From Octopus sinensis (lineage: Eukaryota), in contig NC_042997.1 of assembly GCF_006345805.1 (NCBI RefSeq), forward strand, positions 8,308,001 through 8,372,000: 64,000 bases of DNA, given 5' to 3'. Position 1 is the stretch's first letter. Each line of letters begins with the position of its first letter. The position numbers are program-made. Shown one piece after another: positions 53,898 to 55,635 of the stretch.

Positions 53898-55635
53898 GCA
53901 GACAGACAGATAGACAGGGAGGCAGACGGACAGGTTGACAGGTAGATAGATAGATAGATAGATGTGTTTCTTTATTAGCCACACAGGGCTGCACACAGAT
54001 AGAACAAATTACAAGGTAGAGCTTTTCTTTTGGGGGTAAAAAAAAGGGAGTGGTGGTTTTCGATCAAAAGGGATCGTAAAAGGAAAGAAAGAGGACAAAA
54101 AAAGGGAGGGGTTAATAAAAAAAAAATAATAAAAAAAAAAAACAAGGTGGGGGGAGAGCAAACAAATTGATCAATAGGGATCGTTATCACAGAAATGTCA
54201 ATATGAAGTGTAAAGGGGAGAACAGGTGAGGTTTACCCGTGGAAAGAAAAGCCTACGGAAAAGACCACGGTAACCTCGGTCAATGAAGTCACATGTTATA
54301 TTTCTTTTTTTTTTTGCAAATAAGCAACTCTCTGTATTAATTTTTACGGTTCATAGAATCATAGTCAAGGTGGCTTCGTCATTCATACGTGCCATCCTTG
54401 CTACATTCACCCATCTTTTTTTAAAACATTCACTAGACAAAACTTGCCTCTCTACTCTCACTTTCCTCTTCAAGTGATACTTGAAGAAGTTGATGAGAGA
54501 TTGACCAGAGAGGAAAGTGTTTGTCTCTAATCCTTTCAGGCGCGTCCACCAGATACATTCTTTCGCCATAGCTACAAGTATGATAAAAATAGCTCTTCCT
54601 TCCCGTTTGAAGGAAGGAGGCGTGACGATATTAACGATAGACTCGGCTGATAACCGATACGTCCCACACGTGACAGCAGTCGTTCGACATAAGCCCACAG
54701 GTCGGAAATTGCTGGACACTGCACGATTGCGTGCAGAGCGGTTTCGTCGCTCTGCCCGCATCTCGGGCAGGTCGGCCCCGTGTTTCTCGAGCCATGCCTA
54801 TAGAGCTTATCCCGAACGGGTAGCGCTTCTCGGTAGCACCGCCAGGCCAGGGATCTCTGGAAGTTGTCCATAGGTCCCGGGCCGAAAGTCGTTTGAAACA
54901 GGCGGGTCAGGTATTCCTCGTCGATGCCCAGGTTTGCCCCGAGCTCGTCGTCGTACCTCCCCTCCACTAATCCCCTATAGAATGTTTTGGTTGTGTTGAA
55001 GTCACTCAAGGTCGACCCGGGACGGCAGAGTTGCTTGAGAGCAACGCGACACTCGCGATGCCATTCGCCCTTCCTCGGCCTCTTTTTGATCCACGACTGT
55101 AGTTCGGTCATGGAGACGAGTTGCGGGAATGCGTGCCTCACAAACGGCGACCACACCTGTTCACCGTCGTCTACATAGAGCCGGAGATGTCACAGTCTCA
55201 GCGCGTGTTTGCGCATCATCAACCACGGCATGCCCAGCCCTCCTTTTAACGGGTGTTGACAGCAAATGGATCGCCTGACCATCGGGACGCATCCTTTCCA
55301 CAAGAAGCGGAAGAGGATGCGTTCTAGTTTGGTGATGGTAGGGTCGGGACAAGGTACGACGGTCAGGCGGTAGTAGATGATGGACGCGATGTACGCGTTC
55401 ACCACCTCCGCCCGACCTTTTAGGGACAGTTTCCTCTCGGCCCATTGCTGGGCGAGAGTGACCACCCTACTCGTTATCTCGTTCCAGTTCTTCTCCATTT
55501 GAGGGTCCGGACCGAACCAGACCCCGAGCAACTCAACCGGGCCGTCTGTCCAGCGTCCCACGACGGAGGTACTGGTGGACGGCATGGGCTTGCTTCTCCA
55601 GGTGCCGAGCCGCAAGCCCACTGACTTTTCCCGGT

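What the first reader, a model, noticed from the sequence alone, without database searches (positions are those of the whole stretch)
53967..54008. SINE subfamily shares its 3' terminal 42 nt with a Tx1/L1-clade LINE
Seen: ungapped plus-strand alignment of the Tx1 end TTTCTTTATTAGCCACACAGGGCTGCACACAGATAGAACAAA (53967-54008) with the S3 end TTTCTTTACTACCCACAAGGGGCTAAACACAGAGAGGACAAA (57046-57087) gives 34/42 identities by hand count; the 38270-38311 copy gives 32/42. All three end at the same position. Other S3 copies (57960-58190, 61539-61736) have a different tail. Established: SINEs borrow the 3' end of the LINE whose machinery they use; this is common for L2/CR1/RTE partners and less often documented for L1-clade elements. 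Inference: an S3 subfamily was captured by a Tx1-type LINE through tail swapping.
Basis: partly seen in the sequence, partly recalled or inferred. Interest (0 to 1): 0.7.

Follow-up and report, generated by a model that had tools for sequence, protein, structure and literature searches.

The report
Octopod SINE and LINE share tail
Two copies of a short octopod retroposon (SINE) end in about 45 bases that also end a neighbouring L1/Tx1-type LINE fragment, the usual sign that the LINE's enzyme copies the SINE, but only one LINE copy could be examined.

Summary
53967-54008 matches 57046-57087 at 34/42 and 38270-38311 at 32/42. This is far above chance: local score 45 and 43 against a shuffle maximum of 30, 0 of 500 shuffles; BLAST E 6e-6.

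All three elements lie on the minus strand, so the stretch is their true 3' end. One 3-nt gap extends the match to 47/50 nt.

The LINE (53967-55640) is a 5'-truncated ORF2 C-terminus with a zf-RVT domain. Its relatives carry endonuclease, RT and zf-RVT, and their best solved match is human L1 ORF2p. Tx1 as opposed to L1 proper could not be tested.

The SINE body carries three tail classes, pairwise no more alike than chance. Only class A matches this LINE.

The ORF has one stop in 426 codons, so the 19% tail difference is not in-place decay of a present-day class-A fragment (joint probability at most about 0.01).

The window holds one LINE copy of this family and no octopod DNA collection was available. 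A family-wide tail (about 0.55) cannot be separated from a one-off chimera (about 0.3).

This is a known kind of relationship, possibly a new example.

The parts
53967..54016 (-). 3'-terminal tail of the LINE fragment. The last 42 nt (53967-54008) align ungapped with the class-A SINE tails. One 3-nt gap extends the alignment to 50 LINE nt against 47 SINE nt. It ends ...GGCTAATAAAGAAA and has no poly(A).
53967..55640 (-). 5'-truncated L1/Tx1-type LINE fragment (1674 nt): ORF2 C-terminal remnant plus 3' UTR.
54351..55640 (-). ORF2 remnant aligning to residues 491-912 (the C-terminus) of relative P0001 at about 70% identity. It has one in-frame TGA at 55190-55192, one frameshift near 54660, a stop at 54351-54353, and a Pfam zf-RVT hit (E 2.3e-8) within 54575-55189.
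53967..54350 (-). 384-nt 3' UTR, single-copy in the window apart from its last ~50 nt and low-complexity runs. It has an A11 run at about 54303-54315 just after the stop, and an internal direct repeat (ACGATCCCT[A/T]TTGATC).
55636..55707 (.). (TAGA)18, 100% pure, abutting the 5' truncation point of the LINE.
53628..53963 (.). (TAGA)84, 82% matches, starting 4-5 nt after the LINE 3' end. With the array above it brackets the whole LINE fragment.
57046..57275 (-). Class-A SINE copy (230 nt) with a 15-bp target-site duplication. Its tail (57046-57092) matches the LINE end.
38270..38499 (-). Class-A SINE copy, 95.7% identical to the copy at 57046-57275, with a 13-bp target-site duplication (one mismatch). 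Its tail is 38270-38316.
57960..58190 (+). Same SINE body (86.7% over positions 42-169) with a class-B tail ending ...TAGTAGAAA.
61540..61734 (+). Same SINE body (76%) with a class-B tail, lying between (TTA)27 and (ATT)35 arrays.
34916..35055 (-). Same SINE body with a class-C tail ending ...AAATTTGAAA. It lies between the two other (TAGA)n arrays of the window.
29694..30040 (-). The only other 3' end of this LINE type in the window: a C-terminal remnant (58% identical to P0001 over 52 aa) plus a short 3' UTR ending in (ATT)n. Its 3' UTR is not similar to any SINE tail above chance.

Best explanation
The last 42-50 nt of this L1/Tx1-type LINE and of the class-A SINE subfamily are homologous 3' tails.

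**What the SINE is.** It is modular. One body is joined, just after the GTCGATGTAATCGACT hairpin, to one of at least three unrelated tails. The class-A tail comes from the 3' end of this LINE lineage or a close relative.

**Proposed mechanism (inferred from established SINE/LINE biology, not shown here).**
- The LINE's ORF2 protein recognises the specific 3' end of its template RNA ('stringent' type; neither element has a poly(A) tail).
- It starts target-primed reverse transcription there.
- An RNA carrying the same tail is therefore copied in trans.

**Shown:** the similarity, its significance, that it is co-terminal, that it is confined to the tail module, the L1-group nature of the LINE, and that the LINE tail is not a decayed copy of the present class-A subfamily.

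**Inferred:** that the tail is a family property of the LINE, the direction of transfer, and actual mobilisation.
For: - **Identity:** 34/42 and 32/42 ungapped; 47/50 nt with one 3-nt gap.
- **Significance:** 0 of 500 shuffles reach the score; BLAST E 6.4e-6.
- **Common end:** the match runs to the last base of both SINE copies, as fixed by their target-site duplications. It ends 4-5 nt before the flanking array at the LINE.
- **Module boundary:** similarity starts at SINE position 184, inside the tail module that begins near 170, where class A, B and C copies diverge.
- **Three tail classes:** class-A tails are no more like the other tails tested than chance, and neither are B and C tails like each other (all nine tails). 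Tail exchange therefore happened in this family.
- **LINE type:** zf-RVT hit; alignment to the C-terminus of ORF2 relatives; relatives carry Exo_endo_phos + RVT_1 + zf-RVT; best solved match is human L1 ORF2p at 8.8e-69 against R2 at 5e-16.
- **Age:** one stop in 426 codons gives P(at most 1 stop) = 0.085 at 8% neutral decay and 0.001 at 19%. Combined with at least 7 mismatches in 42, the probability is at most about 0.01 at any decay level tried. The LINE tail is therefore a separate lineage of the sequence.
- **No duplication around the tail:** no target-site duplication flanks the 42-50 nt inside the LINE (read). No tail-only class-A fragment occurs elsewhere in the window.
- **Literature:** L1-Tx1 LINEs are reported as recently active in Octopus vulgaris, with 13 families and 421 insertions (PMC13282606, Table 1 passage).
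Against: - Only one copy of this LINE family is in the window, so a family-wide tail is unproven.
- The other end of the same LINE type (29694-30040) has an unrelated 3' UTR: 41 and 78 of 500 shuffles reach its score against the class-A tails.
- Insertion sites differ. The LINE lies between two (TATC)n arrays, while the two class-A SINE copies lie at AT-rich, non-microsatellite sites. A target-specific LINE should place its SINE in the same target.
- The tail hairpin has only 4 bp. Folding z-scores are +0.26 (LINE), -0.05 and -1.84 (SINE copies), none convincing. The LINE hairpin is shifted by one base relative to the SINE hairpin.
- An A11 run directly after the ORF stop (about 54303-54315) leaves open that the LINE proper ends there.
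Confidence: 0.55

Rival explanations
1. One-off chimera or nested fragment. Either the reverse transcriptase started on a SINE RNA (or on the RNA of the SINE's real partner LINE), copied about 45-50 nt and then switched template into the 3' UTR of this LINE's RNA, or a 5'-truncated SINE landed exactly at this LINE's end. The tail would then belong to this copy only and would say little about which LINE moves the SINE.
For: - Only one LINE copy carries the tail.
- The related LINE end at 29694-30040 does not carry it.
- The LINE and SINE insertion sites differ.
- Template-switch chimeras of L1 with other RNAs are documented (abstract of PMC13174262 in the listing; passage in PMC4494074).
Against: - The tail differs by 19% from both class-A copies while the ORF shows little decay (joint probability at most about 0.01). 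The donor would have to be a subfamily not seen here.
- No target-site duplication surrounds the 42-50 nt, which argues against a later nested insertion.
- None of the 13 SINE copies aligned is a tail-only fragment, and the profile search found no orphan class-A tail.
- The whole block lies between two arrays of the same repeat unit, as if inserted in one event.
Confidence: 0.3
2. The LINE proper ends at the A-run just after its stop codon (about 54303). The 335 nt from there to 53967 would be a separate non-autonomous retroposon that carries a class-A-like tail.
For: - An A11 run lies about 36-48 nt after the stop codon.
- L1-group elements commonly end in poly(A); SINEU and plant L1 examples are described in PMC4494074 and PMC3472496.
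Against: - No target-site duplication surrounds the 335-nt block.
- It has no second copy in the window beyond low-complexity hits.
- No promoter-like head was noticed on reading.
- Arrays of the same repeat unit bracket the LINE and the block together.
Confidence: 0.1
3. Chance resemblance of two T/G-rich ends.
For: The stretch is short (42 nt) and of skewed composition.
Against: - 0 of 500 dinucleotide-preserving shuffles reach the score; the shuffle maximum is 30 against 45.
- BLAST E is 6.4e-6.
- The match runs to the terminal base of all three elements.
Confidence: 0.03

Closest known systems
Stringent-type SINE/LINE pairs with a common 3' tail (Ohshima and Okada's 'common tail' pairs; 58 pairs listed by Ohshima 2012, passages of PMC3472496 and PMC3747384 read)
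   Same: The similarity is confined to the 3' end, is co-terminal, is about 80% identical over about 45 nt, and there is no poly(A). The SINE body carries alternative tails, as the MetaSINEs paper describes for changing partner LINEs (abstract of PMC4824008).
   Different: Here only one LINE copy supports the pair. No conserved stable stem-loop could be shown. Most documented pairs involve L2, CR1 or RTE partners (recalled; those clade names came from no call here).
L1-clade pairs with a shared specific 3' end: maize/sorghum SINEs with LINE1-1_ZM, and Chlamydomonas SINEX-3_CR with L1-1_CR (PMC3472496, passages)
   Same: An L1-group LINE shares a specific 3' end with a SINE, implying stringent rather than poly(A)-based recognition.
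   Different: Those pairs are in plants and a green alga, end in poly(A) repeats, and rest on many LINE copies and a confirmed stem-loop. This one is in an octopod, has no poly(A), and rests on one copy.
Tx1-Mar LINEs and SINEU in crocodilians (Kojima 2015, PMC4494074, abstract and passages)
   Same: A Tx1-clade LINE is proposed as the mobiliser of a SINE.
   Different: That link rests on a shared target preference and poly(A) tails, not on a shared tail sequence. Here the tail is shared but the insertion sites are not.
Target-specific Tx1-clade LINEs (Kojima and Fujiwara 2004, as cited in PMC4494074). The microsatellite-specific families Kibi and Koshi are recalled and came from no call.
   Same: The LINE fragment lies between two arrays of the same repeat, (TATC)n.
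   Different: With one copy this cannot show a preference. Clade membership was not tested.

Membership tests
SINE/LINE partner pair with common 3' tail | Significant sequence similarity confined to the 3' ends and ending at the same terminal base | tested here: met
   34/42 and 32/42. 0 of 500 shuffles reach the score. SINE ends are fixed by target-site duplications. Similarity starts at SINE position 184 of 230.
SINE/LINE partner pair with common 3' tail | The tail is present in the LINE family (consensus or many independent copies), not in one copy only | not testable with these tools
   One copy in the window. The only DNA collection open holds bacteria and archaea.
SINE/LINE partner pair with common 3' tail | Conserved stem-loop in the tail, kept by compensatory changes | tested here: inconclusive
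   A 4-bp hairpin is predicted 10-11 nt from the end in the LINE, both class-A copies and one class-B copy, out of 8 tails folded. Z-scores for those four are +0.26, -0.05, -1.84 and -0.44. On a 10-tail end-anchored alignment, 72% of cells pair against 56% in shuffles (4 of 500 reach it) and slid controls reach at most 47%. However, the helix was derived from these sequences, the classes are not alignable above chance, and the LINE hairpin is one base out of register.
SINE/LINE partner pair with common 3' tail | Same terminal repeats and insertion-site features in SINE and LINE | tested here: not met
   The LINE lies between (TATC)n arrays. The two class-A SINE copies lie at AT-rich sites with 13-15 bp duplications and no array. 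The sample is 1 LINE against 2 SINE copies.
L1 group of non-LTR retrotransposons (L1/Tx1) | APE-type endonuclease, reverse transcriptase and C-terminal zinc knuckle (zf-RVT) in one ORF2 | tested here: met
   The fragment has zf-RVT at E 2.3e-8. It aligns to the C-terminal 422 aa of P0001. Relatives of about 1150 aa carry PF03372 + PF00078 + PF13966. The best solved match of relative P0006 is human L1 ORF2p at 8.8e-69 over endonuclease and RT, against R2 at 5e-16. The endonuclease and most of the RT are missing from the fragment itself.
Tx1 clade specifically | RT phylogeny places it with Xenopus Tx1 and relatives rather than L1 proper | not testable with these tools
   No named Tx1 reference was returned. 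The atlas gave no clade names. The literature only shows that 'L1-Tx1' elements are annotated in octopus genomes.
Tx1 clade specifically | Target-specific insertion | tested here: inconclusive
   One copy is flanked on both sides by (TATC)n. The related fragment at 29694-30040 has (TTC)n at its 5' side and (ATT)n at its 3' side.
tRNA-derived SINE | Short, non-coding, dispersed copies with target-site duplications | tested here: met
   Thirteen copies or fragments were aligned. Two 230-nt copies are 95.7% identical and have duplications.
tRNA-derived SINE | Head recognisably derived from a tRNA, with A and B boxes | tested here: inconclusive
   ARAGORN tRNAs in the window. Rfam gives no tRNA match on 56900-57400 at E up to 1. 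A B-box-like GTTCAAATTCC is visible in the head, but the B-box consensus is recalled.

The most novel reading that the evidence does not exclude
An octopod L1/Tx1-type LINE lineage recognises a specific, poly(A)-less 3' end and mobilises one subfamily of the very abundant octopus SINEs. The SINE body has hopped between at least three LINE partners by tail exchange. The LINE itself may prefer (TATC)n arrays, and the (TATC)n loci of this window look like repeated landing sites for retroposons. This would be a documented animal case of stringent 3'-end recognition in the L1/Tx1 group. It would also name a driver for part of the octopus SINE expansion.
Probability: 0.35. Interest if true: 0.5.

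Novelty: new member of a known kind. Interest (0 to 1): 0.35.

Why it matters
SINEs are reported as the main, octopus-specific component of octopus repeats (PMC8967140 passages). They make up 11.6% of the O. vulgaris assembly (PMC13282606).

None of the octopus repeat papers I read names the LINE that moves them:
- PMC13282606 holds 0 occurrences of 'partner' or 'tail'.
- PMC12988792 holds 0 of 'partner' or 'non-autonomous'.
- My searches listed no paper on an octopus SINE/LINE pair. This is a statement about those searches only.

A confirmed tail match would give a testable partner for one subfamily. It would also add an animal example of specific 3'-end recognition in the L1 group, where poly(A)-based 'relaxed' recognition is the textbook case.

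If the tail proves to be confined to this one copy, the finding is an ordinary chimeric insertion.

Tried and rejected
**Other LINE ends as partners.** I scored the last 80 nt of three LINE ends (53967, 29694, 58602) against nine SINE tails. Only 53967 against the two class-A tails exceeded the shuffles. The other 25 pairs were reached by 29 to 490 of 500 shuffles. My by-eye resemblance between the 29694 end and class-C/B tails (TTACCTT...CAATTATTT) is therefore dropped.

**A single ancestral tail for all SINE classes.** The end-anchored alignment suggested a shared CCTTGTG motif, an ...AGAAA end and a covarying hairpin. Pairwise local scores between classes are at chance, so I do not claim homology between classes.

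**Thermodynamic support for a stem-loop.** None was found.

**More class-A tails in the window.** BLAST with word size 7 and an nhmmer profile found none.

**Naming the LINE clade.**
- The atlas search gave only domain names.
- The second protein search gave almost only unnamed hits.

**Naming the SINE family.**
- A full-text search for a 19-nt body string found 0 papers.
- ARAGORN and Rfam did not recognise a tRNA head.
- Whether it is the 'tRNA-Deu' type named in PMC8967140 stays a recalled lead.

**Not checked.**
- Any octopod genomic DNA outside the window.
- The collections metagenome contigs and viral contigs (closed).
- Supplementary files, which may hold octopus repeat libraries with LINE and SINE consensus sequences (closed).
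- Albertin 2015 (not held).
- The scan of genome contigs was not used, because that collection holds only bacteria and archaea.
- No contig was taken for human, and no spliced model was involved.

Full report
**What is at the coordinates.** The plus-strand string at 53967-54008 is the reverse complement of the 3' end of a minus-strand LINE fragment. The strings at 57046-57087 and 38270-38311 are the reverse complements of the 3' ends of two minus-strand SINE copies.

Recounting gives 34/42 and 32/42 identities, exactly as reported, and 37/42 between the two SINE tails.

**The SINE.**
- The copies at 57046-57275 and 38270-38499 are 230 nt long and 95.7% identical.
- Each is flanked by a target-site duplication that fixes its last base at ...AAAGAAA. 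One is 15 bp; the other is 13 bp with one mismatch.
- Neither copy has a poly(A) or microsatellite tail.
- BLAST found about a dozen further copies or fragments of the same body, and 13 loci were aligned.
- All share the body up to the inverted repeat GTCGATGTAATCGACT and diverge after it.
- By dinucleotide-shuffle tests on the last 45 nt, the tails fall into classes. Within-class pairs exceed all 500 shuffles.
  - Class A: 57046 and 38270.
  - Class B: 58190 and 61734.
  - Class C: 34916 and 30511.
  - Class-A tails against every other tail tested, and B against C tails, are at chance.
It also follows that tail exchange occurred on this body.
- ARAGORN and Rfam do not recognise a tRNA in the head. 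Only a B-box-like motif is visible.

**The LINE.**
- The fragment is 53967-55640 on the minus strand.
- Its reading frames align to residues 491-912, the very C-terminus, of P0001, an unnamed 912-aa protein from NCBI. Identity is about 70%.
- It is 64% identical to an Argonauta hians protein (P0002) and about 41% identical to 1150-aa proteins carrying Exo_endo_phos, RVT_1 and zf-RVT.
- The fragment has a zf-RVT hit (E 2.3e-8), one in-frame TGA, one frameshift, and a stop at 54351.
- The 1153-aa relative P0006 matches human L1 ORF2p over endonuclease and RT at 8.8e-69. R2 proteins match at 5e-16 or worse.
- The element is therefore of the L1 group. Whether it belongs to the Tx1 clade could not be tested, because no named reference was obtainable.
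- Octopus genomes are reported to hold recently active 'L1-Tx1' families (PMC13282606 Table 1; PMC8967140).
- A 384-nt 3' UTR follows the stop. It is unique in the window except for its last ~50 nt and its low-complexity runs.

**Is the match more than chance?** Yes.
- BLAST of the SINE against the window gives E 6.4e-6.
- The local alignment score is 45 and 43, against a shuffle mean of about 15 and a maximum of 30. No shuffle out of 500 reaches it.
- One 3-nt gap extends the alignment to 47 SINE nt against 50 LINE nt, starting with CCTTG.
- The match runs to the terminal base of both SINE copies. At the LINE it stops 4-5 nt before the flanking (TATC)n array.
- It starts at SINE position 184, inside the class-A tail module that begins near position 170.

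- The window has a single copy of this LINE family.
- The only other 3' end of the same LINE type is 29694-30040, 58% identical to P0001 over 52 aa. It has a short, unrelated 3' UTR ending in (ATT)n.
- No octopod DNA outside the window was reachable.

Three indirect arguments favour an intrinsic tail or a tail of separate lineage.

1. The LINE reading frame has one stop in 426 codons.
   - In simulation, P(at most one stop) is 0.085 at 8% neutral decay and 0.001 at 19%.
   - The tail differs from the class-A copies at 8 and 10 of 42 positions. At one of the 8 mismatches against 57046 the 38270 copy agrees with the LINE, hence the lower threshold of 7 used here.
   - The product of the two probabilities is at most about 0.01 at any decay level tried.
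   - The LINE tail is therefore not a piece of the present class-A subfamily that decayed in place.
2. No target-site duplication surrounds the 42-50 nt inside the LINE.
3. No tail-only SINE fragment occurs elsewhere in the window.

None of these excludes a template-switch chimera with an unseen SINE subfamily or with another LINE's tail.

**Evidence against a simple partnership.**
- The LINE fragment lies between a pure (TAGA)18 at 55636-55707 and a degenerate (TAGA)84 at 53628-53963, as if it had inserted into one array.
- The repeat phase is continuous across the insert if the insert ends ...GAAACACA, but that has a one-in-four chance.
- The window has four such arrays, in two pairs. The other pair also brackets retroposons.
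- The two class-A SINE copies are not in such arrays.
- If the LINE is target-specific, as many Tx1 elements are (PMC4494074 passage), its SINE should share the target. With one LINE and two SINE copies this is weak evidence, but it points the other way.

**The stem-loop.**
- ViennaRNA places a 4-bp hairpin 10-11 nt from the 3' end in four of the 8 tails folded: the LINE, both class-A copies and one class-B copy.
- Their z-scores are +0.26, -0.05, -1.84 and -0.44.
- On a 10-tail end-anchored alignment the helix pairs in 72% of cells, against 56% in shuffles (4 of 500 reach it). Slid controls reach at most 47%.
- The helix was chosen from these sequences, the classes are not alignable above chance, and the LINE hairpin is one base out of register. 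I call this inconclusive.

**Comparison with what is known.**
- SINE/LINE pairs with a common 3' tail are textbook. Ohshima's survey listed 58 (PMC3472496).
- L1-clade examples exist in maize, sorghum and Chlamydomonas (same paper).
- A Tx1 family has been proposed to move SINEU in crocodilians, on the basis of a shared target (PMC4494074).
- In the searches, and in the passages read from three octopus repeat papers, I found no named LINE partner for octopus SINEs.
- If confirmed, this is a new member of a known kind.

| Explanation | Probability |
|---|---|
| Homologous tail shared by partners | about 0.55 |
| One-off chimera or nested fragment | about 0.3 |
| Separate non-autonomous element downstream of the LINE's A-run | about 0.1 |
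| Chance | about 0.03 |

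Noticed in passing
window 25823-27008 (-): Rfam calls a eukaryotic SSU rRNA (394.7 bits) that spans model positions 1-1831 in only 1186 nt, so it has large internal gaps. Its 5' end (TACCTGGTTGATCCTGCCAG...) lies about 630 nt downstream, on the minus strand, of a decayed fragment of the same LINE type (27639-28352). It may be an rRNA pseudogene or a retro-copy.
   Followed up: no
window 58602-61100 (-) and 62199-63998 (-): Two copies of a second, unrelated LINE family. 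It has RVT_1 (E 1.3e-26) and a weak zf-RVT hit, and the two copies are 34-45% identical at protein level. The first ends in (AAT)n. Its 3' end is not similar to any SINE tail above chance.
   Followed up: partly
window 61454-61841 and 28774-29086: Two copies of the same SINE body (61540-61734 on +, 28908-29009 on -) each lie between two (ATT)/(TAA)n arrays. The LINE of the finding lies between two (TATC)n arrays. Retroposons embedded in arrays of one repeat unit recur in this window.
   Followed up: partly
window 34411-35258: The window's other pair of (TAGA)n arrays (34411-34483 and 35110-35258) brackets a class-C SINE copy, (CT)n, (AT)n and (ATGT)n runs, and a second, different tRNA-like SINE that ends directly at the array.
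   Followed up: no
window about 56010-56410 (-): A different SINE-like element with a tRNA-like head (GGCCCAGTGGTTAGGG...GGTTTCGATTCCC), flanked by a 12-bp direct repeat AATGAAGTCATA, lies just upstream of the LINE fragment. ARAGORN does not call its head a tRNA.
   Followed up: no
window about 54060-54190 (-): The LINE 3' UTR contains an internal direct repeat, ACGATCCCT[A/T]TTGATC, about 105 nt apart. Each copy is followed by a C-rich stretch and then a T-run.
   Followed up: no
protein P0012: An Octopus bimaculoides protein predicted as 'rho guanine nucleotide exchange factor 10-like' matches the LINE ORF2 remnant at 85% identity over 13% of the query. The gene model probably includes a LINE-derived piece.
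   Followed up: no
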